Positions 36,037-64,000 of a stretch of 64,000 bases of DNA are shown here, one piece after another. The position numbers were made by a program, and so were the translations under genes. Below the pieces are notes generated by a model. The model made no database searches. It worked only from the letters and a program-made list of their open reading frames with translations, and had not been told where the DNA came from. Every line of letters starts with the position of its first letter. Position 1 is the stretch's first letter. This DNA is from Eledone cirrhosa. Lineage: Eukaryota. The DNA is taken from positions 78,616,001 to 78,680,000 of the forward strand of contig OZ024744.1 of NCBI GenBank assembly GCA_964016885.1. Direction: 5' to 3'.

Positions 36037-36420
36037 TACAGTAGTCCCTCGGTATTTACAGAGGCTATGTTCCTAAAGCACCCAGGGAGAGTGAAAAATG
36101 GTGAATATTGCATGTGGTCCATAAAAATGCCTATAAACATCAAAAATATAATGTAAAATATAATTTAAAAAAAAGAGGGAGTGTCTTATGCAAAGGAGCG
36201 TCCAATAGGTCAGCAAATACGATATATTGTTATTAACAATTTAGTGTTAAAAAATATATTGCCATGAAAAAAGTCATAAAAAAAAATCCCGGATGATATT
36301 TACGATCCCGCGTATATGCGTATATGCGGTGGTTTCCGTGAACAATTATTGGTTAGGAAAATGGTGCGAATAACCAGGACTGTGAAAGTTGGGACTGCGA
36401 ACGCTGGGGGGTACACTGTA
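36037..36420 (+). mobile_element. Tc1/mariner (pogo/Tigger-like) MITE
   Basis: TA-cagtagtccctcggtatt ... gctggggggtacactg-TA. Confidence 0.75.
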
Positions 36421-36439
36421 TATATATATATATATATAT

Positions 36440-36842
36440 ATAAAATATTAAACAAATAATGAATAAACAATTCCTTATATTAAACAAAAAAAGTTCATTA
36501 TTTAACGATCGTTTCTAGGATATATATGTGTTAGAATTGGCATGCATATTCAACAGATCTATGTACAAAATTATACAAAATTATACAAACTATCAAGATT
36601 AAATATACATACCAACACATATATACGCCGTCTTCAGAAATAATCTGAAGACGGCGTATATATGTGTTGGTATGTATATTTAATCTTGATAGTTTGTATA
36701 ATTTTGTATAATTTTGTACATAGATCTGTTGAATATGCATGCCAATTCTAACACATATATATCCTAGAAACGATCGTTAAATAATGAACTTTTTTTGTTT
36801 AATATAAGGAATTGTTTATTCATTATTTGTTTAATATTTTAT
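36440..36842. repeat. Perfect palindrome: two 199-bp arms, 5-nt loop (aataa, 36639-36643)
   Basis: Arms read as exact reverse complements by eye, e.g. tatatacgccgtcttcaga / tctgaagacggcgtatata. Confidence 0.95.
36497..36644 (-). ncRNA. Type I hammerhead ribozyme fold with long stem II (Penelope-like)
   Basis: Minus strand: ATTATTT-CTGAAGA-[tatatatgtgtt...aacacatatata stem II]-GAAA-C-GATC-G-TT-AAATAAT. It has a 7-bp stem I, a palindromic stem III (AACGATCGTT) and a GUU triplet; the base of stem II is imperfect. Confidence 0.62.
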
Positions 36843-37352
36843 CTTGACTCTGTATACCGTTTATCTTTCACCGAAAGTGATTTTTCATTACATCTCTTCT
36901 TTCCATGATATCCGGAATACATTGAGTTCTTCATACGGATTGGACACTACCGTAAACTCTTGGTAGATTTATCTACATATATATATATATATATATCATT
37001 ATCAATACATTAACATCAGTATGAGTGGCTTGTTACGACTGGTTTGAACAGAAAGAAGTGAGAGAGCTGGGGGTACACTGTATATATATATATATCATCA
37101 TTATCAATACATTAACATCAGTATGAGTGGCTTGTTACGACCGGTTTGAACAGAAAGAAGTGAGAGAATTTGGGCTGGATATGATTGGTTTAAATGCTGA
37201 AGGGTTAAACCCACTGTCATACCCGCTCACAAAAACATTGTGGCTACAAAAATGGATCCAGAAGTATCTTTTCTTTGTCAATGACCTGAAGTTGTATGGG
37301 CCAAATATTAGCCATGTCAAAAAGCAATTGGACATCATTATTCAATTTTAAA

Positions 37353-46150: not shown

Positions 46151-46766
46151 CCATTCAATCATATACAGTGCGAGTGCTGTTACCTTGACAAAAAGCATGG
46201 TGATAATAATGATGATATTGTACCAACAAAGACCAAATCTGTGTTTTCATTTGCTGCATTCCTGGAAGACCTTTGTTCACTCTATTGTTTTAATACCAAA
46301 ATATTATGTCATTCATCATCATCATCGTTTAATTTCCATCTTCCATGCTAGACTGGGTCGGACATTATTGGCAACAAAAGAAGTTAACTGCTTCAATGAA
46401 TCATCATCATCATTTTACGTCTGCTTTTCCTTCCTTGCAAGGGTTGGCTAAGTCTTATTAAGCACGGCATCTCTCCATTCGTCACGGTCCTTTGTCATCT
46501 CCATGAGTTTCAGCGATCTGTGGTCTGCTCTCACCACCTCTGCCCATGTTTTTCGTGGTCTTCTTCTAATGGGATTTCTTGGCACTTCTTCACCCAGCGG
46601 TCATCCTCCATGCGCATCTTTAGAAGAATGGTATTAGTACAGATATTATTATAACAGTTGTTGTTGAAAGAATAAGAATGGCTGATTTACTTTTTATACA
46701 AAGGTTTACTTCATTGAAGTCAAAATCAACAATAAACATATTACCAATGAGTTACGAAAGTTGTTG

Positions 46767-49700
46767 ATGTTATCTGTGCAGCTGGTTCATGAGGTTGTTA
46801 GTTTGAGAGTTGCTCTTGGCAGGATGTTATCTGTGTAGTTGGTTCATGAGGTTGTTAGTTTGAGAGTTGCTCTTGGCAGGATGTTATCTGTGTAGTTGGT
46901 TCATGAGGTTGTTAGTTTGAGAGTTGCTCTTGGCAGGATGTTATCTGTGTAGTTGGTTCATGAGGTTGTTAGTTTGAGAGTTGCTCTTGGCAGGATGTTA
47001 TCTGTGTAGTTGGTTCATGAGGTTGTTAGTTTGAGAGTTGCTCTTGGCAGGATGTTATCTGTGTAGTTGGTTCATGAGGTTGTTAGTTTGAGAGTTGCTC
47101 TTGGCAGGATGTTATCTGTGTAGCTGGTTCATGAGGTTGTTAGTTTGAGAGTTGCTCTTGGCAGGATGTTATCTGTGTAGTTGGTTCATGAGGTTGTTAG
47201 TTTGAGAGTTGCTCTTGGCAGGATGTTATCTGTGTAACTGGTTCATGAGGTTGTTAGTGAGAGAGTTGCTCTTGGCAGGATGTTATCTGTGTAGTTGGTT
47301 CATGAGGTTGTTAGTTTGAGAGTTGCTCTTGGCAGGATGTTATCTGTGTAGCTGGTTCATGAGGTTGTTAGTGAGAGAGTTGCTCTTGGCAGGATGTTAT
47401 CTGTGTAGCTGGTTCATGAGGTTGTTAGTGAGAGAGTTGCCACTTGGCATGATGTTATCTGTGTAGCTGGTTCATGAGGTTGTTAGTGAGAGAGTTGCTC
47501 TTGGCAGGATGTTATCTGTGTAGTTGGTTCATGAGGTTGGTAGTGAGAGAGTTGCTCTTGGCAGGATGTTATCTGTGTAGTTGGTTCATGAGATTGTTAG
47601 TGAGAGAGTTGCCTCTTGGCAGGATGTTATCTGTGTAGTTGGTTCATGAGGTTGTTAGTTTGAGAGTTGCTCTTGGCAGGATGTTATCTGTGTAGCTGGT
47701 TCATGAGTTTGTTAGTTTGAGAGTTGCTCTTGGCAGGATGTTATCTGTGTAGCTGGTTCATGAGGTTGTTAGTTTGAGAGTTGCTCTTGGCAGGATGTTA
47801 TCTGTGTAGTTGGTTCATGAGGTTGTTAGTTTGAGAGTTGCTCTTGGCAGGATGTTATCTGTGTAGTTGGTTCATGAGGTTGTTAGTGAGAGAGTTGCTC
47901 TTGGCAGGATGTTATCTGTGTAGCTGGTTCATGAGGTTGTTAGTTTGAGAGTTGCTCTTGGCAGGATGTTATCTGTGTAGTTGGTTCATGAGGTTGTTAG
48001 TTTGAGAGTTGCTCTTGGCAGGATGTTATCTGTGTAGTTGGTTCATGAGGTTGTTAGTTTGAGAGTTGCTCTTGGCAGGATGTTATCTGTGTAGTTGGTT
48101 CATGAGGTTGTTAGTTTGAGAGTTGCTCTTGGCAGGATGTTATCTGTGTAGTTGGTTCATGAGGTTGTTAGTTTGAGAGTTGCTCTTGGCAGGATGTTAT
48201 CTGTGCAGCTGGTTCATGAGGTTGTTAGTTTGAGAGTTGCTCTTGGCAGGATGTTATCTGTGCAGCTGGTTCATGAGGTTGTTAGTTTGAGAGTTGCTCT
48301 TGGCAGGATGTTATCTGTGCAGCTGGTTCATGAGGTTGTTAGTTTGAGAGTTGCTCTTGGCAGGATGTTATCTGTGTAGCTGGTTCATGAGGTTGTTAGT
48401 TTGAGAGTTGCTCTTGGCAGGATGTTATCTGTGTAGTTGGTTCATGAGGTTGTTAGTTTGAGAGTTGCAACTTGGCAGGATGTTATCTGTGCAGCTGGTT
48501 CATGAGGTTGTTAGTTTGAGAGTTGCCTCTTGGCAGGATGTTATCTGTGCAGCTGGTTCATGAGGTTGTTAGTTTGAGAGTTGCTCTTGGCAGGATGTTA
48601 TCTGTGTAGTTGGTTCATGAGGTTGTTAGTTTGAGAGTTGCCACTTGGCAGGATGTTATCTGTGCAGCTGGTTCATGAGGTTGTTAGTTTGAGAGTTGCT
48701 CTTGGCAGGATGTTATCTGTGTAGCTGGTTCATGAGGTTGTTAGTGAGAGAGTTGCTCTTGGCATGGTGTTATCTGTGTAGTTGGTTCATGAGGTTGTTA
48801 GTTTGAGAGTTGCTCTTGGCAGGATGTTATCTGTGTAGTTGGTTCATGAGGTTGTTAGTTTGAGAGTTGCCTCTTGGCAGGATGTTATCTGTGTAGTTGG
48901 TTCATGAGGTTGGTAGTGAGAGAGTTGCTCTTGGCAGGATGTTATCTGTGTAGTTGGTTCATGAGGTTGTTAGTTTGAGAGTTGCTCTTGGCAGGATGTT
49001 ATCTGTGTAGTTGGTTCATGAGGTTGTTAGTTTGAGAGTTGCTCTTGGCAGGATGTTATCTGTGTAGTTGGTTCATGAGGTTGTTAGTTTGAGAGTTGCT
49101 CTTGGCAGCATGTTATCTGTGTAGTTGGTTCATGAGGTTGTTAGTGAGAGAGTTGCTCTTGGCAGGATGTTATCTGTGTAGCTGGTTCATGAGGTTGTTA
49201 GTGAGAGAGTTGCCTCTTGGCAGGATGTTATCTGTGTAGCTGGTTCATGAGGCTGTTAGTTTGAGAGTTGCTCTTGGCAGGATGTTATCTGTGTAACTGG
49301 TTCATGAGGTTGTTAGTTTGAGAGTTGCTCTTGGCAGGATGTTATCTGTGTAGTTGGTTCATGAGGTTGTTAGTTTGAGAGTTGCTCTTGGCAGGATGTT
49401 ATCTGTGTAACTGGTTCATGAGGTTGTTAGTTTGAGAGTTGCTCTTGGCAGGATGTTATCTGTGTAACTGGTTCATGAGGTTGTTAGTTTGAGAGTTGCT
49501 CTTGGCAGGATGTTATGTGTGTAGTTGGTTCATGAGGTTGTTAGTGAGAGAGTTGCTCTTGGCAGGATGTTATCTGTGTAGTTGGTTCATGAGGTTGTTA
49601 GTGAGAGAGTTGCTCTTGGCAGGATGTTATCTGTGTAGTTGGTTCATGAGGTTGTTAGTTTGAGAGTTGCTCTTGGCAGGATGTTATCTGTATAGTTGGT

Positions 49701-52700
49701 TCATGAGGTTGTTAGTTTGAGAGTTGCTCTTGGCAGCATGTTATCTGTGTAGTTGGTTCATGAGGTTGTTAGTGAGAGAGTTGCTCTTGGCAGGATGTTA
49801 TCTGTGTAGCTGGTTCATGAGGTTGTTAGTGAGAGAGTTGCCTCTTGGCAGGATGTTATCTGTGTAGCTGGTTCATGAGGCTGTTAGTTTGAGAGTTGCT
49901 CTTGGCAGGATGTTATCTGTGTAACTGGTTCATGAGGTTGTTAGTTTGAGAGTTGCTCTTGGCAGGATGTTATCTGTGTAACTGGTTCATGAGGTTGTTA
50001 GTTTGAGAGTTGCTCTTGGCAGGATGTTATGTGTGTAGTTGGTTCATGAGGTTGTTAGTGAGAGAGTTGCTCTTGGCAGGATGTTATCTGTGTAGTTGGT
50101 TCATGAAGTTGTTAGTGAGAGAGTTGCTCTTGGCAGGATGTTATCTGTGTAGTTGGTTCATGAGGTTGTTAGTTTGAGAGTTGCTCTTGGCAGGATGTTA
50201 TCTGTGTAGTTGGTTCATGAGGTTGTTAGTTTGAGAGTTGCCTCTTGGCAGGATGTTATCTGTGTAGTTGGTTCATGAGGTTGTTAGTTTGAGAGTTGCT
50301 CTTGGCAGGATGTTATCTGTGTAACTGGTTCATGAGGTTGTTAGTTTGAGAGTTGCTCTTGGCAGGATGTTATCTGTGTAGATGGTTCATGAGGTTGTTA
50401 GTGAGAGAGTTGCTCTTGGCAGGATGTTATCTGTGTAGTTGGTTCATGAGGTTGTTAGTTTGAGAGTTGCTCTTGGCAGGATGTTATCTGTGTAGCTGGT
50501 TCATGAGGTTGTTAGTGAGAGAGTTGCTCTTGGCAGGATGTTATCTGTGTAGTTGGTTCATGAGGTTGTTAGTTTGAGAGTTGCTCTTGGCAGGATGTTA
50601 TCTGTGTAGTTGGTTCATGAGTTTGTTAGTTTGAGAGTTGCTCTTGGCAGGATGTTATCTGTGTAGTTGGTTCATGAGGTTGTTAGTTTGAGAGTTGCTC
50701 TTGGCAGCATGTTATCTGTGTAGCTGGTTCATGAGGTTGTTAGTGAGAGAGTTGCTCTTGGCAGGATGTTATCAGTGTAGTTGGTTCATGAGGTTGTTAG
50801 TTTGAGAGTTGCTCTTGGCAGGATGTTATCTGTGTAACTGGTTCATGAAGTTGTTAGTTTGAGAGTTGCCTCTTGGCAGGTTGTTATCTGTGTAGTTGGT
50901 TAATGAGGTTGTTAGTTTGAGAGTTGCTCTTGGCAGGATGTTATCTGTGTAGTTGGTTCATGAGGTTGTTAGTTTGAGAGTTGCTCTTGGCAGGATGTTA
51001 TCTGTGTAGTTGGTTCATGAGGTTGTTAGTTTGAGAGTTGCTCTTGGCAGGATGTTATCTGTGTAGTTGGTTCATGAGGTTGGTAGTGAGAGAGTTGCTA
51101 TTGGCATGGTGTTATCTGTGTAGTTGGTTCATGAGGTTGTTAGTTTCAGAGTTGCCACTTGGCAGGATGTTATCTGTGTAGTTGGTTAATGAGGTTGTTA
51201 GTTTGAGAGTTGCTCTTGGCAGGATGTTATCTGTGTAATTGGTTCATGAGGTTGTTAGTGAGAGAGTTGCTCTTGGCAGGATGTTATCTGTGTAGTTGGT
51301 TCATGAGGTTGTTAGTTTGAGAGTTGCCTCTTGGCATGGTGTTATCTGTGTAGTTGGTTCATGAGGTTGTTAGTTTGAGAGTTGCCACTTGGCAGGATGT
51401 TATCTGTGTAGTTGGTTAATGAGGTTGTTAGTTTGAGAGTTGCTCTTGGCAGGATGTTATCTGTGTAGTTGGTTCATGAGGTTGTTAGTTTGAGAGTTGC
51501 TCTTGGCAGGATGTTATCTGTGTAGTTGGTTCATGAGGTTGTTAGTTTGAGAGTTGCTCTTGGCAGGAAGTTATCTGTGTAATTGGTTCATGAGGTTGTT
51601 AGTGAGAGAGTTGCTCTTGGCAGGGTGTTATCTGTGTAGTTGGTTCATGAGGTTGGTAGTGAGAGAGTTGCTCTTGGCAGGATGTTATCTGTGTAGTTGG
51701 TTCATGAGGTTGTTAGTTTGAGAGTTGCCTCTTGGCAGGAAGTTATCTGTGTAGTTGGTTCATGAGGTTGTTAGTTTGAGAGTTGCCTCTTGGCATGGTG
51801 TTATCTGTGTAGTTGGTTCATGAGGTTGTTAGTGAGAGAGTTGCTTTTGGCAGGATGTTATCTGTGTAACTGGTTCATGAGGTTGTTAGTGAGAGAGTTG
51901 CTTTTGGCAGGATGTTATCTGTGTAGTTGGTTCATGAGGTTGTTAGTTTGAGAGTTGCTCTTGGCAGCATGTTATCTGTGTAGTTGGTTCATGAGGTTGT
52001 TAGTTTGAGAGTTGCTCTTGGCAGGATGTTTTCTGTGTAGTTGGTTCATGAGGTTGCTAGTGAGAGAGTTGCTCTTGGCAGGATGTTATCTGTGTAGTTG
52101 GTTCATGAGGTTGCTAGTGAGAGAGTTGCTCTTGGCATGGTGTTATCTGTGTAGTTGGTTCATGAGGTTGGTAGTGAGAGAGTTCCCTCTTGGCAGGATG
52201 TTATCTGTGTAACTGGTTCATAATGTTGTTAGTGAGAGAGTTGCTCTTGGCAGGATGTTATCTGTGTAGTTGGTTCATGAGGTTGTTAGTTTGAGAGTTG
52301 CTTTTGGCAGGATGTTATCTGTGTAGTTGGTTCATGAGGTTGTTAGTGAGAGAGTTGCTCTTGGCAGGATGTTATCTGTGTAGTTGGTTCATGAGGTTGT
52401 TAGTTTGAGAGTTGCTCTTGGCAGGATGTTATCTGTGTAGTTGGTTCATGAGGTTGTTAGTTTGAGAGTTGCTTTTGGCAGGATGTTATCTGTGTAGTTG
52501 GTTCATGAGGTTGTTAGTGAGAGAGTTGCTCTTGGCAGGATGTTATCTGTGTAGTTGGTTCATGAGGTTGTTAGTTTGAGAGTTGCTCTTGGCAGGATGT
52601 TATCTGTGTAGCTGGTTCATGAGGTTGTTAGTTTGAGAGTTGCTCTTGGCAGGATGTTATCTGTGTAGTTGGTTCATGAGGTTGTTAGTTTGAGAGTTGC

Positions 52701-55700
52701 TCTTGGCAGGATGTTATCTGTGTAGTTGGTTCATGAGGTTGTTAGTGAGAGAGTTGCTCTTGGCAGGATGTTATCTGTGTAGCTGGTTCATGAGGTTGTT
52801 AGTTTGAGAGTTGCTCTTGGCAGGATGTTATCTGTGTAGTTGGTTCATGAGGTTGTTAGTTTGAGAGTTGCTCTTGGCAGGATGTTATCTGTGTAGTTGG
52901 TTCATGAGGTTGTTAGTTTGAGAGTTGCTCTTGGCAGGATGTTATCTGTGTAGTTGGTTCATGAGGTTGTTAGTTTGAGAGTTGCTCTTGGCAGGATGTT
53001 ATCTGTGTAGTTGGTTCATGAGGTTGTTAGTTTGAGAGTTGCTCTTGGCAGGATGTTATCTGTGCAGCTGGTTCATGAGGTTGTTAGTTTGAGAGTTGCT
53101 CTTGGCAGGATGTTATCTGTGCAGCTGGTTCATGAGGTTGTTAGTTTGAGAGTTGCTCTTGGCAGGATGTTATCTGTGCAGCTGGTTCATGAGGTTGTTA
53201 GTTTGAGAGTTGCTCTTGGCAGGATGTTATCTGTGTAGCTGGTTCATGAGGTTGTTAGTTTGAGAGTTGCTCTTGGCAGGATGTTATCTGTGTAGTTGGT
53301 TCATGAGGTTGTTAGTTTGAGAGTTGCCACTTGGCAGGATGTTATCTGTGCAGCTGGTTCATGAGGTTGTTAGTTTGAGAGTTGCCTCTTGGCAGGATGT
53401 TATCTGTGCAGCTGGTTCATGAGGTTGTTAGTTTGAGAGTTGCTCTTGGCAGGATGTTATCTGTGTAGTTGGTTCATGAGGTTGTTAGTTTGAGAGTTGC
53501 CACTTGGCAGGATGTTATCTGTGCAGCTGGTTCATGAGGTTGTTAGTTTGAGAGTTGCTCTTGGCAGGATGTTATCTGTGTAGCTGGTTCATGAGGTTGT
53601 TAGTGAGAGAGTTGCTCTTGGCATGGTGTTATCTGTGTAGTTGGTTCATGAGGTTGTTAGTTTGAGAGTTGCTCTTGGCAGGATGTTATCTGTGTAGTTG
53701 GTTCATGAGGTTGTTAGTTTGAGAGTTGCCTCTTGGCAGGATGTTATCTGTGTAGTTGGTTCATGAGGTTGGTAGTGAGAGAGTTGCTCTTGGCAGGATG
53801 TTATCTGTGTAGTTGGTTCATGAGGTTGTTAGTTTGAGAGTTGCTCTTGGCAGGATGTTATCTGTGTAGTTGGTTCATGAGGTTGTTAGTTTGAGAGTTG
53901 CTCTTGGCAGGATGTTATCTGTGTAGTTGGTTCATGAGGTTGTTAGTTTGAGAGTTGCTCTTGGCAGCATGTTATCTGTGTAGTTGGTTCATGAGGTTGT
54001 TAGTGAGAGAGTTGCTCTTGGCAGGATGTTATCTGTGTAGCTGGTTCATGAGGTTGTTAGTGAGAGAGTTGCCTCTTGGCAGGATGTTATCTGTGTAGCT
54101 GGTTCATGAGGCTGTTAGTTTGAGAGTTGCTCTTGGCAGGATGTTATCTGTGTAACTGGTTCATGAGGTTGTTAGTTTGAGAGTTGCTCTTGGCAGGATG
54201 TTATCTGTGTAGTTGGTTCATGAGGTTGTTAGTTTGAGAGTTGCTCTTGGCAGGATGTTATCTGTGTAACTGGTTCATGAGGTTGTTAGTTTGAGAGTTG
54301 CTCTTGGCAGGATGTTATCTGTGTAACTGGTTCATGAGGTTGTTAGTTTGAGAGTTGCTCTTGGCAGGATGTTATGTGTGTAGTTGGTTCATGAGGTTGT
54401 TAGTGAGAGAGTTGCTCTTGGCAGGATGTTATCTGTGTAGTTGGTTCATGAGGTTGTTAGTGAGAGAGTTGCTCTTGGCAGGATGTTATCTGTGTAGTTG
54501 GTTCATGAGGTTGTTAGTTTGAGAGTTGCTCTTGGCAGGATGTTATCTGTATAGTTGGTTCATGAGGTTGTTAGTTTGAGAGTTGCTCTTGGCAGCATGT
54601 TATCTGTGTAGTTGGTTCATGAGGTTGTTAGTGAGAGAGTTGCTCTTGGCAGGATGTTATCTGTGTAGCTGGTTCATGAGGTTGTTAGTGAGAGAGTTGC
54701 CTCTTGGCAGGATGTTATCTGTGTAGCTGGTTCATGAGGCTGTTAGTTTGAGAGTTGCTCTTGGCAGGATGTTATCTGTGTAACTGGTTCATGAGGTTGT
54801 TAGTTTGAGAGTTGCTCTTGGCAGGATGTTATCTGTGTAACTGGTTCATGAGGTTGTTAGTTTGAGAGTTGCTCTTGGCAGGATGTTATGTGTGTAGTTG
54901 GTTCATGAGGTTGTTAGTGAGAGAGTTGCTCTTGGCAGGATGTTATCTGTGTAGTTGGTTCATGAAGTTGTTAGTGAGAGAGTTGCTCTTGGCAGGATGT
55001 TATCTGTGTAGTTGGTTCATGAGGTTGTTAGTTTGAGAGTTGCTCTTGGCAGGATGTTATCTGTGTAGTTGGTTCATGAGGTTGTTAGTTTGAGAGTTGC
55101 CTCTTGGCAGGATGTTATCTGTGTAGTTGGTTCATGAGGTTGTTAGTTTGAGAGTTGCTCTTGGCAGGATGTTATCTGTGTAACTGGTTCATGAGGTTGT
55201 TAGTTTGAGAGTTGCTCTTGGCAGGATGTTATCTGTGTAGATGGTTCATGAGGTTGTTAGTGAGAGAGTTGCTCTTGGCAGGATGTTATCTGTGTAGTTG
55301 GTTCATGAGGTTGTTAGTTTGAGAGTTGCTCTTGGCAGGATGTTATCTGTGTAGCTGGTTCATGAGGTTGTTAGTGAGAGAGTTGCTCTTGGCAGGATGT
55401 TATCTGTGTAGTTGGTTCATGAGGTTGTTAGTTTGAGAGTTGCTCTTGGCAGGATGTTATCTGTGTAGTTGGTTCATGAGTTTGTTAGTTTGAGAGTTGC
55501 TCTTGGCAGGATGTTATCTGTGTAACTGGTTCATGAGGTTGTTAGTTTGAGAGTTGCTCTTGGCAGCATGTTATCTGTGTAGCTGGTTCATGAGGTTGTT
55601 AGTGAGAGAGTTGCTCTTGGCAGGATGTTATCTGTGTAGTTGGTTCATGAGGTTGTTAGTTTGAGAGTTGCTCTTGGCAGGATGTTATCTGTGTAACTGG

Positions 55701-58700
55701 TTCATGAAGTTGTTAGTTTGAGAGTTGCCTCTTGGCAGGTTGTTATCTGTGTAGTTGTTTAATGAGGTTGTTAGTTTGAGAGTTGCTCTTGGCAGGATGT
55801 TATCTGTGTAGTTGGTTCATGAGGTTGTTAGTTTGAGAGTTGCTCTTGGCAGGATGTTATCTGTGTAGTTGGTTCATGAGGTTGTTAGTTTGAGAGTTGC
55901 TCTTGGCAGGATGTTATCTGTGTAGTTGGTTCATGAGGTTGGTAGTGAGAGAGTTGCTATTGGCATGGTGTTATCTGTGTAGTTGGTTCATGAGGTTGTT
56001 AGTTTCAGAGTTGCCTCTTGGCATGGTGTTATCTGTGTAGTTGGTTCATGAGGTTGTTAGTTTGAGAGTTGCCACTTGGCAGGATGTTATCTGTGTAGTT
56101 GGTTAATGAGGTTGTTAGTTTGAGAGTTGCTCTTGGCAGGATGTTATCTGTGTAATTGGTTCATGAGGTTGTTAGTGAGAGAGTTGCTCTTGGCAGGATG
56201 TTATCTGTGTAGTTGGTTCATGAGGTTGTTAGTTTGAGAGTTGCCTCTTGGCATGGTGTTATCTGTGTAGTTGGTTCATGAGGTTGTTAGTTTGAGAGTT
56301 GCCACTTGGCAGGATGTTATCTGTGTAGTTGGTTAATGAGGTTGTTAGTTTGAGAGTTGCTCTTGGCAGGATGTTATCTGTGTAGTTGGTTCATGAGGTT
56401 GTTAGTTTGAGAGTTGCTCTTGGCAGGATGTTATCTGTGTAGTTGGTTCATGAGGTTGTTAGTTTGAGAGTTGCTCTTGGCAGGAAGTTATCTGTGTAAT
56501 TGGTTCATGAGGTTGTTAGTGAGAGAGTTGCTCTTGGCAGGGTGTTATCTGTGTAGTTGGTTCATGAGGTTGGTAGTGAGAGAGTTGCTCTTGGCAGGAT
56601 GTTATCTGTGTAGTTGGTTCATGAGGTTGTTAGTTTGAGAGTTGCCTCTTGGCAGGAAGTTATCTGTGTAGTTGGTTCATGAGGTTGTTAGTTTGAGAGT
56701 TGCCTCTTGGCATGGTGTTATCTGTGTAGTTGGTTCATGAGGTTGTTAGTGAGAGAGTTGCTTTTGGCAGGATGTTATCTGTGTAACTGGTTCATGAGGT
56801 TGTTAGTGAGAGAGTTGCTTTTGGCAGGATGTTATCTGTGTAGTTGGTTAATGAGGTTGTTAGTTTGAGAGTTGCTCTTGGCAGCATGTTATCTGTGTAG
56901 TTGGTTCATGAGGTTGTTAGTTTGAGAGTTGCTCTTGGCAGGATGTTATCTGTGTAGTTGGTTCATGAGGTTGCTAGTGAGAGAGTTGCTCTTGGCAGGA
57001 TGTTATCTGTGTAGTTGGTTCATGAGGTTGCTAGTGAGAGAGTTGCTCTTGGCATGGTGTTATCTGTGTAGTTGGTTCATGAGGTTGGTAGTGAGAGAGT
57101 TGCCTCTTGGCAGGATGTTATCTGTGTAACTGGTTCATAAGGTTGTTAGTGAGAGAGTTGCTCTTGGCAGGATGTTATCTGTGTAGTTGGTTCATGAGGT
57201 TGTTAGTTTGAGAGTTGCTTTTGGCAGGATGTTATCTGTGTAGTTGGTTCATGAGGTTGTTAGTGAGAGAGTTGCTCTTGGCAGGATGTTATCTGTGTAG
57301 TTGGTTCATGAGGTTGTTAGTTTGAGAGTTGCTCTTGGCAGGATGTTATCTGTGTAGTTGGTTCATGAGGTTGTTAGTTTGAGAGTTGCTCTTGGCAGGA
57401 TGTTATCTGTGTAGTTGGTTCATGAGGTTGTTAGTTTGAGAGTTGCTCTTGGCAGGAAGTTATCTGTGTAATTGGTTCATGAGGTTGTTAGTGAGAGAGT
57501 TGCTCTTGGCAGGGTGTTATCTGTGTAGTTGGTTCATGAGGTTGGTAGTGAGAGAGTTGCTCTTGGCAGGATGTTATCTGTGTAGTTGGTTCATGAGGTT
57601 GTTAGTTTGAGAGTTGCCTCTTGGCAGGAAGTTATCTGTGTAGTTGGTTCATGAGGTTGTTAGTTTGAGAGTTGCCTCTTGGCATGGTGTTATCTGTGTA
57701 GTTGGTTCATGAGGTTGTTAGTGAGAGAGTTGCTTTTGGCAGGATGTTATCTGTGTAACTGGTTCATGAGGTTGTTAGTGAGAGAGTTGCTTTTGGCAGG
57801 ATGTTATCTGTGTAGTTGGTTCATGAGGTTGTTAGTTTGAGAGTTGCTCTTGGCAGCATGTTATCTGTGTAGTTGGTTCATGAGGTTGTTAGTTTGAGAG
57901 TTGCTCTTGGCAGGATGTTTTCTGTGTAGTTGGTTCATGAGGTTGCTAGTGAGAGAGTTGCTCTTGGCAGGATGTTATCTGTGTAGTTGGTTCATGAGGT
58001 TGCTAGTGAGAGAGTTGCTCTTGGCATGGTGTTATCTGTGTAGTTGGTTCATGAGGTTGGTAGTGAGAGAGTTCCCTCTTGGCAGGATGTTATCTGTGTA
58101 ACTGGTTCATAATGTTGTTAGTGAGAGAGTTGCTCTTGGCAGGATGTTATCTGTGTAGTTGGTTCATGAGGTTGTTAGTTTGAGAGTTGCTTTTGGCAGG
58201 ATGTTATCTGTGTAGTTGGTTCATGAGGTTGTTAGTGAGAGAGTTGCTCTTGGCAGGATGTTATCTGTGTAGTTGGTTCATGAGGTTGTTAGTTTGAGAG
58301 TTGCTCTTGGCAGGATGTTATCTGTGTAGTTGGTTCATGAGGTTGTTAGTTTGAGAGTTGCTTTTGGCAGGATGTTATCTGTGTAGTTGGTTCATGAGGT
58401 TGTTAGTGAGAGAGTTGCTCTTGGCAGGATGTTATCTGTGTAGTTGGTTCATGAGGTTGTTAGTTTGAGAGTTGCTCTTGGCAGGATGTTATCTGTGTAG
58501 TTGGTTCATGAGGTTGTTAGTTTGAGAGTTGCTTTTGGCAGGATGTTATCTGTGTAGTTGGTTCATGAGGTTGTTAGTTTGAGAGTTGCTCTTGGCAGGA
58601 TGTTATCTGTGTAGTTGGTTCATGAGGTTGTTAGTTTGAGAGTTGCTTTTGGCAGGATGTTATCTGTGTAGTTGGTTCATGAGGTTGTTAGTGAGAGAGT

Positions 58701-61700
58701 TGCTCTTGGCAGGATGTTATCTGTGTAGTTGGTTCATGAGGTTGTTAGTTTGAGAGTTGCTCTTGGCAGGATGTTATCTGTGTAGCTGGTTCATGAGGTT
58801 GTTAGTTTGAGAGTTGCTCTTGGCAGGATGTTATCTGTGTAACTGGTTCATGAGGTTGTTAGTTTGAGAGTTGCTCTTGGCAGGATGTTATCTGTGTAGT
58901 TGGTTCATGAGGTTGTTAGTTTGAGAGTTGCCTCTTGGCAGGATGTTATCTGTGTAGCTGGTTCATGAGGTTGTTAGTTTGAGAGTTGCTCTTGGCAGGA
59001 TGTTATCTGTGTAACTGGTTCATGAGGTTGCTAGTGAGAGAGTTGCTCTTGGCAGGATGTTATCTGTGTAGTTGGTTCATGAGGTTGTTAGTTTGAGAGT
59101 TGCTCTTGGCAGGATGTTATCTGTGTAGTTGGTTCATGAGGTTGTTAGTTTGAGAGTTGCTCTTGGCAGGATGTTATCTGTGTAGTTGGTTAATGAGGTT
59201 GTTAGTTTGAGAGTTGCCACTTGGCAGGATGTTATCTGTGTAGTTGGTTCATGAGGTTGTTAGTTTGAGAGTTGCCTCTTGGCGGGATGTTATCTGTGTA
59301 ACTGGTTCATGAGGTTGTTAGTTTGAGAGTTGCTCTTGGCAGGATGTTATCTGTGTAGCTGGTTCATGAGGTTGTTAGTTTGAGAGTTGCTCTTGGCAGC
59401 ATGTTATCTGTGTAGTTGGTTCATGAGGTTGTTAGTTTGAGAGTTGCTCTTGGCAGGATGTTATCTGTGTAGCTGGTTCATGAGGTTGTTAGTTTGAGAG
59501 TTGCTCTTGGCAGGATGTTATCTGTGTAGTTGGTTCATGAGGTTGTTAGTGTGAGAGTTGCTCTTGGCAGGATGTTATCTGTGTAGTTGGTTCATGAGGT
59601 TGTTAGTTTGAGAGTTGCTCTTGGCAGGATGTTATCTGTGTAGTTGGTTCATGAGGTTGTTAGTTTGAGAGTTGCTCTTGGCAGGATGTTATCTGTGTAA
59701 CTGGTTCATGAGGTTGTTAGTGAGAGAGTTGCCTCTTGGCAGCATGTTATCTGTGTAGTTGGTTCATGAGGTTGTTAGTGAGAGAGTTGCTCTTGGCAGG
59801 ATGTTATCTGTGTAGTTGGTTCATGAGGTTGTTAGTTTGAGAGTTGCTCTTGGCAGGATGTTATCTGTGTAGTTGGTTCATGAGATTGTTAGTTTGAGAG
59901 TTGCTCTTGGCAGGATGTTATCTGTGTAGTTGGTTCATGAGGTTGTTAGTTTGAGAGTTGCTCTTGGCAGGATGTTATCTGTGTAGTTGGTTCATGAGGT
60001 TGTTAGTTTGAGAGTTGCTCTTGGCATGGTGTTATCTGTGTAGTTGGTTCATGAGGTTGGTAGTGAGAGAGTTGCTCTTGGCAGCATGTTATCTGTGTAG
60101 TTGGTTCATGAGGTTGGTAGTGAGAGAGTTGCTCTTGGCAGCATGTTATCTGTGTAGTTGGTTCATGAGGTTGTTAGTTTGAGAGTTGCTCTTGGCAGGA
60201 TGTTATCTGTGTAGCTGGTTCATGAGGTTGGTAGTGAGAGAGTTGCTCTTGGCAGGATGTTATCTGTGTAGTTGGTTCATGAGGTTGTTTGTTTGAGAGT
60301 TGCTCTTGGCAGCATGTTATCTGTGTAGTTGGTTAATGAGGTTGTTAGTTTGAGAGTTGCTCTTTGCAGGATGTTATCTGTGTAGTTGGTTCATGAGGTT
60401 GTTAGTTTGAGAGTTGCTCTTGGCAGGATGTTATCTGTGTAGTTGGTTCATGAGGTTGTTAGTTTGAGAGTTGCTCTTGGCAGGATGTTATCTGTGTAGT
60501 TGGTTAATGAGGTTGTTAGTTTGAGAGTTGCTCTTGGCAGGATGTTATCTGTGTAGTTGGTTAATGATGTTGTTAGTTTGAGAGTTGCTCTTGGCAGGAT
60601 GTTATCTGTGTAGTTGGTTCATGAGGTTGTTAGTTTGAGAGTTGCTCTTGGCAGCATGTTATCTGTGTAGTTGGTTAATGATGTTGTTAGTTTGAGAGTT
60701 GCTCTTGGCAGGATGTTATCTGTGTAGTTGGTTCATGAGGTTGTTAGTTTGAGAGTTGCTCTTGGCAGCATGTTATCTGTGTAGTTGGTTCATGAGGTTG
60801 TTAGTTTGAGAGTTGCTCTTGGCAGGATGTTATCTGTGTAGCTGGTTCATGAGGTTGTTAGTGAGAGAGTTGCCTCTTGGCAGGATGTTATCTGTGTAGC
60901 TGGTTCATGAGGTTGTTAGTTTGAGAGTTGCCTCTTGGCAGGATGTTATCTGTGTAGTTGGTTCATGAGGTTGTTAGTTTGAGAGTTGCTCTTGGCAGGA
61001 TGTTATCTGTGTAGTTGGTTAATGAGGTTGTTAGTTTGAGAGTTGCCACTTGGCAGGATGTTATCTGTGTAGTTGGTTCATGAGGTTGTTAGTTTGAGAG
61101 TTGCCTCTTGGCGGGATGTTATCTGTGTAACTGGTTCATGAGGTTGTTAGTTTGAGAGTTGCTCTTGGCAGGATGTTATCTGTGTAGCTGGTTCATGAGG
61201 TTGTTAGTTTGAGAGTTGCTCTTGGCAGCATGTTATCTGTGTAGTTGGTTCATGAGGTTGTTAGTTTGAGAGTTGCTCTTGGCAGGATGTTATCTGTGTA
61301 GCTGGTTCATGAGGTTGTTAGTTTCAGAGTTGCTCTTGGCAGGATGTTATCTGTGTAGTTGGTTCATGAGGTTGTTAGTTTGAGAGTTGCTCTTGGCAGG
61401 ATGTTATCTGTGTAGTTGGTTCATGAGGTTGTTAGTTTGAGAGTTGCTCTTGGCAGGATGTTATCTGTGTAGTTGGTTCATGAGGTTGTTAGTTTGAGAG
61501 TTGCTCTTGGCAGGATGTTATCTGTGTAACTGGTTCATGAGGTTGTTAGTGAGAGAGTTGCCTCTTGGCAGCATGTTATCTGTGTAGTTGGTTCATGAGG
61601 TTGTTAGTGAGAGAGTTGCTCTTGGCAGGATGTTATCTGTGTAGTTGGTTCATGAGGTTGTTAGTTTGAGAGTTGCTCTTGGCAGGATGTTATCTGTGTA

Positions 61701-64000
61701 GTTGGTTCATGAGATTGTTAGTTTGAGAGTTGCTCTTGGCAGGATGTTATCTGTGTAGTTGGTTCATGAGGTTGTTAGTTTGAGAGTTGCTCTTGGCAGG
61801 ATGTTATCTGTGTAGTTGGTTCATGAGGTTGTTAGTTTGAGAGTTGCTCTTGGCATGGTGTTATCTGTGTAGTTGGTTCATGAGGTTGGTAGTGAGAGAG
61901 TTGCTCTTGGCAGCATGTTATCTGTGTAGTTGGTTCATGAGGTTGGTAGTGAGAGAGTTGCTCTTGGCAGCATGTTATCTGTGTAGTTGGTTCATGAGGT
62001 TGTTAGTTTGAGAGTTGCTCTTGGCAGGATGTTATCTGTGTAGCTGGTTCATGAGGTTTGGTAGTGAGAGAGTTGCTCTTGGCAGGATGTTATCTGTGTA
62101 GTTGGTTCATGAGGTTGTTTGTTTGAGAGTTGCTCTTGGCAGCATGTTATCTGTGTAGTTGGTTAATGAGGTTGGTAGTGAGAGAGTTCCCTCTTGGCAG
62201 GATGTTATCTGTGTAACTGGTTCATAATGTTGTTAGTGAGAGAGTTGCTCTTGGCAGGATGTTATCTGTGTAGTTGGTTCATGAGGTTGTTAGTTTGAGA
62301 GTTGCTTTTGGCAGGATGTTATCTGTGTAGTTGGTTCATGAGGTTGTTAGTGAGAGAGTTGCTCTTGGCAGGATGTTATCTGTGTAGTTGGTTCATGAGG
62401 TTGTTAGTTTGAGAGTTGCTCTTGGCAGGATGTTATCTGTGTAGTTGGTTCATGAGGTTGTTAGTTTGAGAGTTGCTTTTGGCAGGATGTTATCTGTGTA
62501 GTTGGTTCATGAGGTTGTTAGTGAGAGAGTTGCTCTTGGCAGGATGTTATCTGTGTAGTTGGTTCATGAGGTTGTTAGTTTGAGAGTTGCTCTTGGCAGG
62601 ATGTTATCTGTGTAGTTGGTTCATGAGGTTGTTAGTTTGAGAGTTGCTTTTGGCAGGATGTTATCTGTGTAGTTGGTTCATGAGGTTGTTAGTTTGAGAG
62701 TTGCTCTTGGCAGGATGTTATCTGTGTAGTTGGTTCATGAGGTTGTTAGTTTGAGAGTTGCTTTTGGCAGGATGTTATCTGTGTAGTTGGTTCATGAGGT
62801 TGTTAGTGAGAGAGTTGCTCTTGGCAGGATGTTATCTGTGTAGTTGGTTCATGAGGTTGTTAGTTTGAGAGTTGCTCTTGGCAGGATGTTATCTGTGTAG
62901 CTGGTTCATGAGGTTGTTAGTTTGAGAGTTGCTCTTGGCAGGATGTTATCTGTGTAACTGGTTCATGAGGTTGTTAGTTTGAGAGTTGCTCTTGGCAGGA
63001 TGTTATCTGTGTAGTTGGTTCATGAGGTTGTTAGTTTGAGAGTTGCCTCTTGGCAGGATGTTATCTGTGTAGCTGGTTCATGAGGTTGTTAGTTTGAGAG
63101 TTGCTCTTGGCAGGATGTTATCTGTGTAACTGGTTCATGAGGTTGCTAGTGAGAGAGTTGCTCTTGGCAGGATGTTATCTGTGTAGTTGGTTCATGAGGT
63201 TGTTAGTTTGAGAGTTGCTCTTGGCAGGATGTTATCTGTGTAGTTGGTTCATGAGGTTGTTAGTTTGAGAGTTGCTCTTGGCAGGATGTTATCTGTGTAG
63301 TTGGTTAATGAGGTTGTTAGTTTGAGAGTTGCCACTTGGCAGGATGTTATCTGTGTAGTTGGTTCATGAGGTTGTTAGTTTGAGAGTTGCCTCTTGGCGG
63401 GATGTTATCTGTGTAACTGGTTCATGAGGTTGTTAGTTTGAGAGTTGCTCTTGGCAGGATGTTATCTGTGTAGCTGGTTCATGAGGTTGTTAGTTTGAGA
63501 GTTGCTCTTGGCAGCATGTTATCTGTGTAGTTGGTTCATGAGGTTGTTAGTTTGAGAGTTGCTCTTGGCAGGATGTTATCTGTGTAGCTGGTTCATGAGG
63601 TTGTTAGTTTGAGAGTTGCTCTTGGCAGGATGTTATCTGTGTAGTTGGTTCATGAGGTTGTTAGTGTGAGAGTTGCTCTTGGCAGGATGTTATCTGTGTA
63701 GTTGGTTCATGAGGTTGTTAGTTTGAGAGTTGCTCTTGGCAGGATGTTATCTGTGTAGTTGGTTCATGAGGTTGTTAGTTTGAGAGTTGCTCTTGGCAGG
63801 ATGTTATCTGTGTAACTGGTTCATGAGGTTGTTAGTGAGAGAGTTGCCTCTTGGCAGCATGTTATCTGTGTAGTTGGTTCATGAGGTTGTTAGTGAGAGA
63901 GTTGCTCTTGGCAGGATGTTATCTGTGTAGTTGGTTCATGAGGTTGTTAGTTTGAGAGTTGCTCTTGGCAGGATGTTATCTGTGTAGTTGGTTCATGAGA
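46767..64000. repeat. 57-bp satellite array (~300 units, continues past window end)
   Basis: Consensus gttatctgtgtagttggttcatgaggttgttagtttgagagttgctcttggcaggat with occasional 58-bp variants. The consensus has a stop in all six frames. Confidence 0.99.

What the first reader, a model, noticed from the sequence alone, without database searches (positions are those of the whole stretch)
36440..36976. Perfect 403-bp palindrome folded back exactly at a hammerhead ribozyme
Seen: 199-bp arms with no mismatch found and a 5-nt loop. The symmetry centre abuts the CTGAAGA core. The loop supplies stem I (ATTATTT/AAATAAT) only for the minus-strand copy, so one arm holds a complete hammerhead fold and the mirror arm a stem-I-less one. 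The right arm continues ~135 bp further into a (TA)n tract. Established: Penelope-like elements carry hammerheads in pseudo-LTRs and often insert with inverted terminal segments; long perfect palindromes are unstable and extrude cruciforms. Inference: a very recent non-autonomous PLE/retrozyme insertion formed by fold-back priming. A transcript would be a 199-bp dsRNA hairpin competing with the ribozyme fold.
Basis: partly seen in the sequence, partly recalled or inferred. Interest (0 to 1): 0.75.

Follow-up and report, generated by a model that had tools for sequence, protein, structure and literature searches.

The report
Penelope stub palindrome marks RNA start
This mirror-image DNA is one of hundreds of short back-to-back insertions of a Penelope-type jumping gene in an animal genome, and they all meet at one spot that is likely where the element's capped RNA begins, not where its predicted self-cutting ribozyme would cut.

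Summary
The palindrome is real: 199-bp arms, no mismatch, AATAA loop. It is not unique. It is a stub insertion of a young Hydra-clade Penelope-like element (PLE); a 7.1-kb copy with an intact RT/GIY-YIG ORF is 100% identical to both arms. At least 857 genomic palindromes fold at this point, the 5' edge of hammerhead stem I, 141 nt upstream of the predicted cut; only 17 fold near the cut. Copies stop sharply at TTC|A, an initiator-like site, and an untemplated G there (25% against 9% one base in) looks like a copied cap. In 45 of 50 palindromes one arm carries the 137-nt tail and the other does not; none has two tails or none. Either arm can hold the full 5' end, and some tail arms are too short to have templated their partner. 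Best reading: both nicked target strands prime on one RNA at two start sites, both cDNAs run off its 5' end, and they are end-joined. No RNA data were available. This scan reported the same reading earlier for other palindromes in this genome.

The parts
36440..36644 (-). Tail-less arm: element nt +1 to +205, from the inferred RNA start to the first inferred RT start site
   Evidence: 100% identical to L043 351-555
36644..36978 (+). Tailed arm: element nt +7 to about +342, ending at the second inferred RT start site
   Evidence: 100% identical to L043 357-692
36843..36978 (+). Tail of about 137 nt, present on one arm only
   Evidence: 45 of 50 sampled palindromes have one tailed and one tail-less arm
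36638..36645 (.). Junction. 36644 is the inferred +1 A on the minus strand; 36645 reads G on the minus strand and may be the copied cap, giving 2 nt of microhomology
36497..36644 (-). Type I hammerhead fold: 7-bp stem I, CUGAAGA, 115-nt stem II region, GAAA, palindromic helix III; predicted cut after 36504
   Evidence: Motif scan and constrained fold, -37.9 against -42.0 kcal/mol for the free minimum; activity not tested
36645..36785 (+). Mirror hammerhead core that lacks the 5' strand of stem I
   Evidence: sequence
36515..36612 (-). Intron-like 98-nt stretch inside stem II (+33 to +130): GTATGT donor, CTAAC branch-like site, YAG acceptor ending at the G of GAAA
   Evidence: Sequence; donor word found in 165 of 192 arms; no spliced genomic copy; splice consensus recalled; untested
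36419..36441 (.). Left (TA)n target tract
36978..36996 (.). Right (TA)n target tract
37066..37168 (+). Tandem duplicate of the flank that keeps an empty copy of the insertion site (about 7 TA units)

Best explanation
This is a stub insertion of a young Hydra-clade Penelope-like retroelement in a (TA)n tract, likely made when both nicked target strands primed reverse transcription on one element RNA and both copies ran off its likely capped 5' end. Shown: family identity, the two fixed 3' ends (+205 and +342), the sharp 5' stop at +1, the tail/no-tail pairing, arm identity and the excess G. Inferred: the GIY-YIG/RT protein cuts both strands; one strand primes at +342 and the other at +205 in the 5' pLTR of the transcript; each cDNA is only 205 or 342 nt because the RNA starts at the 5' edge of hammerhead stem I; the cap is sometimes copied as an extra base; the two cDNA ends are joined through 1-2 nt of microhomology or short insertions. 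The ribozyme sits at the centre only because the RNA starts there; these templates were uncut.
For: Source element L043: 7081-bp unit, intact 813-aa ORF, both arms 100% identical. Hydra motifs present. 857 palindromes fold within 30 nt of the core against 17 near the predicted cut. Base before ATTATTT: 4157 templated C, 428 G, 1302 A/T; one base further in only 340 breaks, 29 with G: G share 24.7% against 8.5%, Fisher p about 1e-12. Of 100 arms in 50 palindromes, 47 keep exactly 7 nt upstream of the core and 6 keep more. 45 of 50 are tail plus no-tail, none has two tails or two tail-less arms, 5 have a broken arm; the longer 5' end is on the tailed arm 15 times, the tail-less arm 15 times, equal 15 times. 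Arms within a locus differ by a median of 0, between loci by 7. 8 insertions among 101 sampled arms have a tail arm that covers only +220 or later while the partner covers sequence further 5'. 9 of 12 long inverted insertions show the same two ends. An anole PLE cuts and extends both strands and starts RT at two internal sites that define the tail, on uncut RNA (PMC11167929). Penelope and Chlamys-3 have their start site in the pLTR (PMC2377424; PMC8557442). An extra G marks the cap at full-length L1 5' junctions (PMC11702581).
Against: No RNA data, so the start site and cap are inferred from DNA. 75% of breaks at +1 show A or T, not G. In 7 of 15 sampled G junctions the G could come from the partner arm (my reading). 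An AATAAA lies at -14 to -9, so a 3'-processing cut is a possible source of the same RNA end. The TTC-A-TT initiator match is from memory, and there is no clear TATA or DPE. Identical arms are also what copying one arm from the other would give. The samples are the first 50 of 857 and first 100 of 6237 listed matches, all on contig C1.
Confidence: 0.7

Rival explanations
1. Same two-ended priming, but the RNA end at +1 is made by cleavage/polyadenylation of a read-through transcript, or RT stalls at stem I, and not by transcription start.
For: AATAAA at -14 to -9 and a CA dinucleotide at the boundary. The boundary coincides with the 5' strand of a 10-bp stem I in the full element.
Against: Neither predicts the excess G at -1. 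The hexamer is only 8 nt from the boundary, short by recalled standards. A stall would be expected at the 3' edge of stem I, 7 nt downstream, whereas 47 of 100 arms keep all 7 nt.
Confidence: 0.14
2. Snap-back: one cDNA primed at the tail runs to the RNA end, folds on itself and copies itself back to +205.
For: Arms are near-identical within loci. The centre can be drawn as a small hairpin.
Against: Here the loop reads TTATT on the tail-arm cDNA strand, the wrong sense for its own hairpin loop. The longer end is on either arm 15/15/15, and several junctions keep the full 7 nt on both arms. Eight insertions have a tail arm too short to be the template.
Confidence: 0.1
3. Ribozyme self-cleavage makes the RNA end at which the palindrome folds.
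For: About 4 of 17 palindromes near the predicted cut centre within 1 nt of it, so a little cut RNA may be copied.
Against: The cut lies at +141; 857 centres are at +1 against 17 near the cut. Both arms here read through the cut site.
Confidence: 0.02
4. Sequencing or assembly fold-back chimera.
For: No read set covers this exact locus.
Against: The two flanks differ and only one arm has the tail. 857 loci show varied junctions at one point. Raw Illumina reads of two other samples show strand-switch joints at L043 350/351 and 351/351 (a few reads each), and a contig of another run shows a fold-back centre.
Confidence: 0.02

Closest known systems
Hydra clade of C-terminal EN+ Penelope-like elements (Craig et al. 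2021, PMC8557442; passages, section 11, supplement part 2 read)
   Same: RW(K/R), DKT, CxCX5C linker, CxxC and CxH around the EN E and N, no CCHH, hammerhead, (TA)n targets. An inverted 5'-truncated copy is on record for Penelope-13_HM. U at the cleavage site occurs in 10 of 25 listed Hydra ribozymes.
   Different: Unit of 7.1 kb with a 4.1-kb 3' UTR (listed Hydra elements are about 3 kb or less). Tail about 137 nt against 30-40. Stem II region 115 nt against roughly 10-25. Its ribozyme sequence differs from Hydra-1_Obim.
Poseidon PAc of Anolis in vitro (Frangieh et al. 2024, PMC11167929; parts 1-2 of 4 read)
   Same: Both strands cut and extended; two internal RT start sites define the tail; uncut RNA is the main template; AT-rich targets.
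   Different: Different clade. PAc start sites lie in the ORF; here they lie in the 5' UTR. In the parts read, that work does not explain inverted insertions or link them to the RNA start.
PLE hammerheads (Cervera and de la Pena 2014, PMC4209133; parts 1-2 of 4 read)
   Same: Type I core in the pLTR, extra nucleotide after position 9, palindromic helix III. Dual motifs on opposite strands 100-700 bp apart were noted in Schistosoma.
   Different: No G10.1-C11.1 pair; very long stem II. That paper gives no fold-point mapping in the parts read.
Drosophila virilis Penelope promoter (Schostak et al. 2008, PMC2377424; passages and section 15 read)
   Same: Start site inside the pLTR, a short intron about 46 nt downstream, inverted terminal repeats of variable size.
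   Different: Start site mapped by experiment there, inferred from junctions here; no clear RGACGTGY element at the matching place.
Animal non-LTR retrozymes (bioRxiv 10.64898/2026.07.22.740005; part 1 of 5 read)
   Same: Type I hammerhead, PLE-related, short and non-coding.
   Different: Retrozymes are head-to-tail arrays; this is a head-to-head stub of an autonomous element.

Membership tests
Hydra-clade PLE | Single ORF with RT and C-terminal GIY-YIG endonuclease | tested here: met
   813-aa ORF with YRDD and C-terminal IVY..YIG, R, E, N motifs conserved in 11 aligned homologues. No Pfam hit at E 0.01; the profile finds only a retron RT in PDB, E 0.008.
Hydra-clade PLE | RWK motif and DKG changed to DKT | tested here: met
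   RWR and DKT in P0001; RWK or RWR and DKT in homologues
Hydra-clade PLE | CxCX5C linker; no CCHH; CxxC and CxH beside the conserved E and N | tested here: met
   CNCRNKANC, CRLC and CNH in P0001
Hydra-clade PLE | Hammerhead in the pLTR and insertion into (TA)n | tested here: met
Hydra-clade PLE | Generally short (<3 kb) | tested here: not met
   7081-bp unit owing to a 4.1-kb 3' UTR; a tendency in the paper, not a diagnostic motif
Hydra-clade PLE | Placement in the Hydra clade on an RT tree with reference elements | not tested
   No reference Hydra proteins were held as usable sequences
Type I hammerhead ribozyme | Core CUGANGA, GAAA, UH with stem I and helix III | tested here: met
   Minus strand 36644-36497; helix III CGATCG in 189 of 192 arms
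Type I hammerhead ribozyme | G10.1-C11.1 pair closing stem II | tested here: not met
   C..A flank the stem in nearly all of 192 arms; many listed Hydra ribozymes also lack the pair
Type I hammerhead ribozyme | Self-cleavage | not testable with these tools
   Indirect only: about 4 palindromes centre at the predicted cut
Non-LTR retrozyme | Head-to-tail array of ribozyme-bearing units with no coding parent | tested here: not met
   Head-to-head pair, identical to the pLTR and 5' UTR of an ORF-bearing element

The most novel reading that the evidence does not exclude
These palindromes record the full PLE integration cycle in vivo: one RT/endonuclease dimer primes both target strands at two fixed sites on a single capped RNA, so tail, inverted repeat and stub all come from one reaction. 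In addition, the ribozyme is switched by splicing: removal of a 98-nt intron inside stem II would rebuild GAAA at the exon junction and give a compact Hydra-size hammerhead, so that spliced mRNA is cut while unspliced RNA is the template. That would explain why PLEs keep their introns.
Probability: 0.2. Interest if true: 0.8.

Novelty: new member of a known kind. Interest (0 to 1): 0.5.

Why it matters
How PLEs form their tandem and inverted ends is named as an open problem in Craig et al. 2021. This family gives hundreds of independent junctions, an intact source ORF, and exact predictions: RNA start at +1, RT starts at +205 and +342, one on each target strand. These can be tested with CAGE and the existing in vitro assay. 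The single locus is ordinary. The family has also left at least 857 short, mostly near-perfect palindromes in one genome, each a potential dsRNA source if read through.

Tried and rejected
DNA similarity search of the genome returned nothing because very common words are skipped. Rfam gave only sub-threshold miRNA matches caused by the hairpin and no hammerhead family. Pfam gave no hit for the PLE ORFs. No RNA holder was listed, so expression, start site, splicing and editing could not be examined. Reads laid on the left flank did not cover the locus-specific junction. Spliced genomic copies: 0 matches; this does not refute the intron, since PLEs keep introns. A-to-G hyper-edited arms: none striking among 195 held arms (some loci held twice); the top two had 5 A>G of 13-14 changes. 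The 'keep' columns were off by one and were redone. A splice acceptor at +1 was rejected: no AG precedes it. Literature searches found no paper that maps PLE inversion points to the RNA start; the library lacks most subscription journals and bioRxiv supplements were closed, so this is not proof of absence.

Full report
Observation. The arms at 36440-36638 and 36644-36842 are exact reverse complements around AATAA. A hammerhead scan of the window finds one 7-of-7 stem I motif, on the minus strand from 36644. The right arm runs on about 136 nt into (TA)n and the left arm abuts (TA)n. A 102-bp tandem duplicate at 37066-37168 keeps an empty copy of the target site. The window lies on contig C28 of a 3.0-Gb genome; the repeats look octopod-like from memory, and the best-scoring homologue of the ORF that carries a species name is from Argonauta.

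Family. A 28-mer of the arm occurs 6237 times and an 18-mer of the core 5905 times. I fetched the regions around the first 100 listed matches on C1. L043 holds a full unit: pLTR, tail, 5' UTR, an intact 813-aa ORF from +495, a 4.1-kb 3' UTR and a second pLTR, 7081 bp in all. Both window arms are 100% identical to it, so the insertion belongs to a young subfamily. The protein has 322 homologues at E up to 0.001 among 7989 scored candidates and carries the motifs that Craig et al. give for the Hydra clade. I did not build a tree with reference elements.

Two fixed 3' ends. Of 101 arms, 50 end at +342 (tailed), 49 at +205 (tail-less) and 2 elsewhere. Both ends finish in AT, matching the (TA)n target. 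Frangieh et al. showed in vitro that a PLE protein cuts and extends both target strands and starts RT at two internal sites whose distance is the tail. I infer that +205 and +342 are these sites.

One fixed 5' stop. 857 loci have two cores back to back within 30 nt. In the 101 arms, 32 end between -3 and +8 and 38 run past -300. Genome-wide, the base before ATTATTT is the templated C 4157 times and another base 1730 times; one base further in there are only 340 breaks. In the first 50 listed palindromes (one search fetched the missing 20), 47 of 100 arms keep exactly the 7 nt of stem I and 6 keep more. The predicted ribozyme cut is at +141; 17 palindromes centre near it, about 4 within 1 nt. 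So the fold point is not the cut.

Why there. The boundary reads TTC|ATT, which fits an initiator consensus that I recall. G makes up 428 of 1730 untemplated bases at the boundary and 29 of 340 one base in (p about 1e-12; the two sets exclude different templated bases, C and A). The window-type centre, which gains a second base of microhomology from a copied cap, occurs 25 times against 9 for the neighbouring one-base join. An extra G from the cap is reported at full-length L1 junctions. Penelope and Chlamys-3 start inside the pLTR. Against: most junctions lack the G, about half of the sampled G cases can be read as partner-derived, AATAAA lies at -14 to -9, and there are no RNA data.

Two primings, one template. 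45 of 50 palindromes pair a tailed with a tail-less arm; none has two of a kind; 5 have a broken arm. The arm with the longer 5' end is the tailed one 15 times, the tail-less one 15 times, equal 15 times. In the window the complete end is on the tail-less arm, which cannot have supplied the tail. Among 18 loci picked by eye for, 8 from the C1 sample (L008, L050, L062, L063, L067, L069, L072, L073) have a tail arm that covers only +220 or later while the partner covers sequence further 5'; snap-back from the tail cDNA cannot make these. Arms within a locus differ by a median of 0 and between loci by 7, with 2% of 2450 between-locus pairs identical, so both arms come from one template or one source locus. 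Junctions show 1-2 nt of microhomology in 29 of 50, or short, partly templated insertions, as expected of end joining. Of 12 long inverted insertions, 9 have the same two ends and 3 run on into a further unit. The stubs are thus the short case of the ordinary insertion, made when the RT start sites of the 5' pLTR are used.

The ribozyme. Core, stem I (10 bp in the full element, 7 here) and palindromic helix III are conserved in 192 held arms. The hammerhead fold costs about 4 kcal/mol over the minimum; the full hairpin is -308 kcal/mol, so a read-through transcript would be all hairpin. The G10.1-C11.1 pair is missing and the site is GUU, but 10 of 25 listed Hydra ribozymes also have U there. 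The 115-nt stem II region is unusual. It holds a GTATGT donor-like word at +33, a CTAAC word and a YAG at +130 whose G is the G of GAAA. By eye, splicing would rebuild GAAA and leave a six-pair, wobble-rich stem of usual size. No spliced genomic copy was found, which PLE intron retention would also predict. This is a lead only.

Artefact. The flanks are asymmetric, junctions vary among hundreds of loci, and raw reads of two other samples show strand switches at +1 (1-4 reads per joint). The locus itself was not covered.

Earlier notes. My reading was noted before the look-up. One search showed unreviewed notes on other palindromes in this genome with the same reading; a look-up by sequence found no note on this family. 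They are not counted as evidence.

Verdict. A real but ordinary copy of a new Hydra-type PLE family. The value is in the junction statistics, which turn an open question on PLE integration into exact tests. Interest 0.5.

Noticed in passing
window 36039-36418: A 380-bp element with imperfect terminal inverted repeats that begin CAGT and TA on both sides, like a Tc1/mariner-type MITE (label recalled). The PLE inserted in the (TA)n at its right end.
   Followed up: no
window 46766-63999: A 57-bp satellite array of about 301 copies, 95% alike, with strong strand skew, running to the window end.
   Followed up: no
window 36980-37168: 102-bp tandem duplication with two differences between the copies; it seems older than the insertion and preserves the empty site.
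   Followed up: partly
L098/L099 (C1:23582216-23582280), L095/L096, L114: Junctions with short repeated copies of the first 14 nt of the element, as if the cDNA end re-primed several times before joining.
   Followed up: partly
L051 (C1:34131200-34132700): Triple-arm structure with two window-type centres 268 bp apart, probably a secondary rearrangement of a palindrome.
   Followed up: no
L043 3286-7430: The 4.1-kb 3' UTR is mostly (TA/TG)-rich low-complexity sequence, unusual for Hydra elements listed at about 3 kb or less.
   Followed up: no
L043 about 730-815: A second GTATGT donor-like word and a TTTAG acceptor-like word lie in the 5' UTR between tail and ATG; a possible second intron.
   Followed up: no
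L076 3266-6385: A LINE-type ORF with APE endonuclease, RT and a PHD finger lies beside or within a family copy.
   Followed up: no
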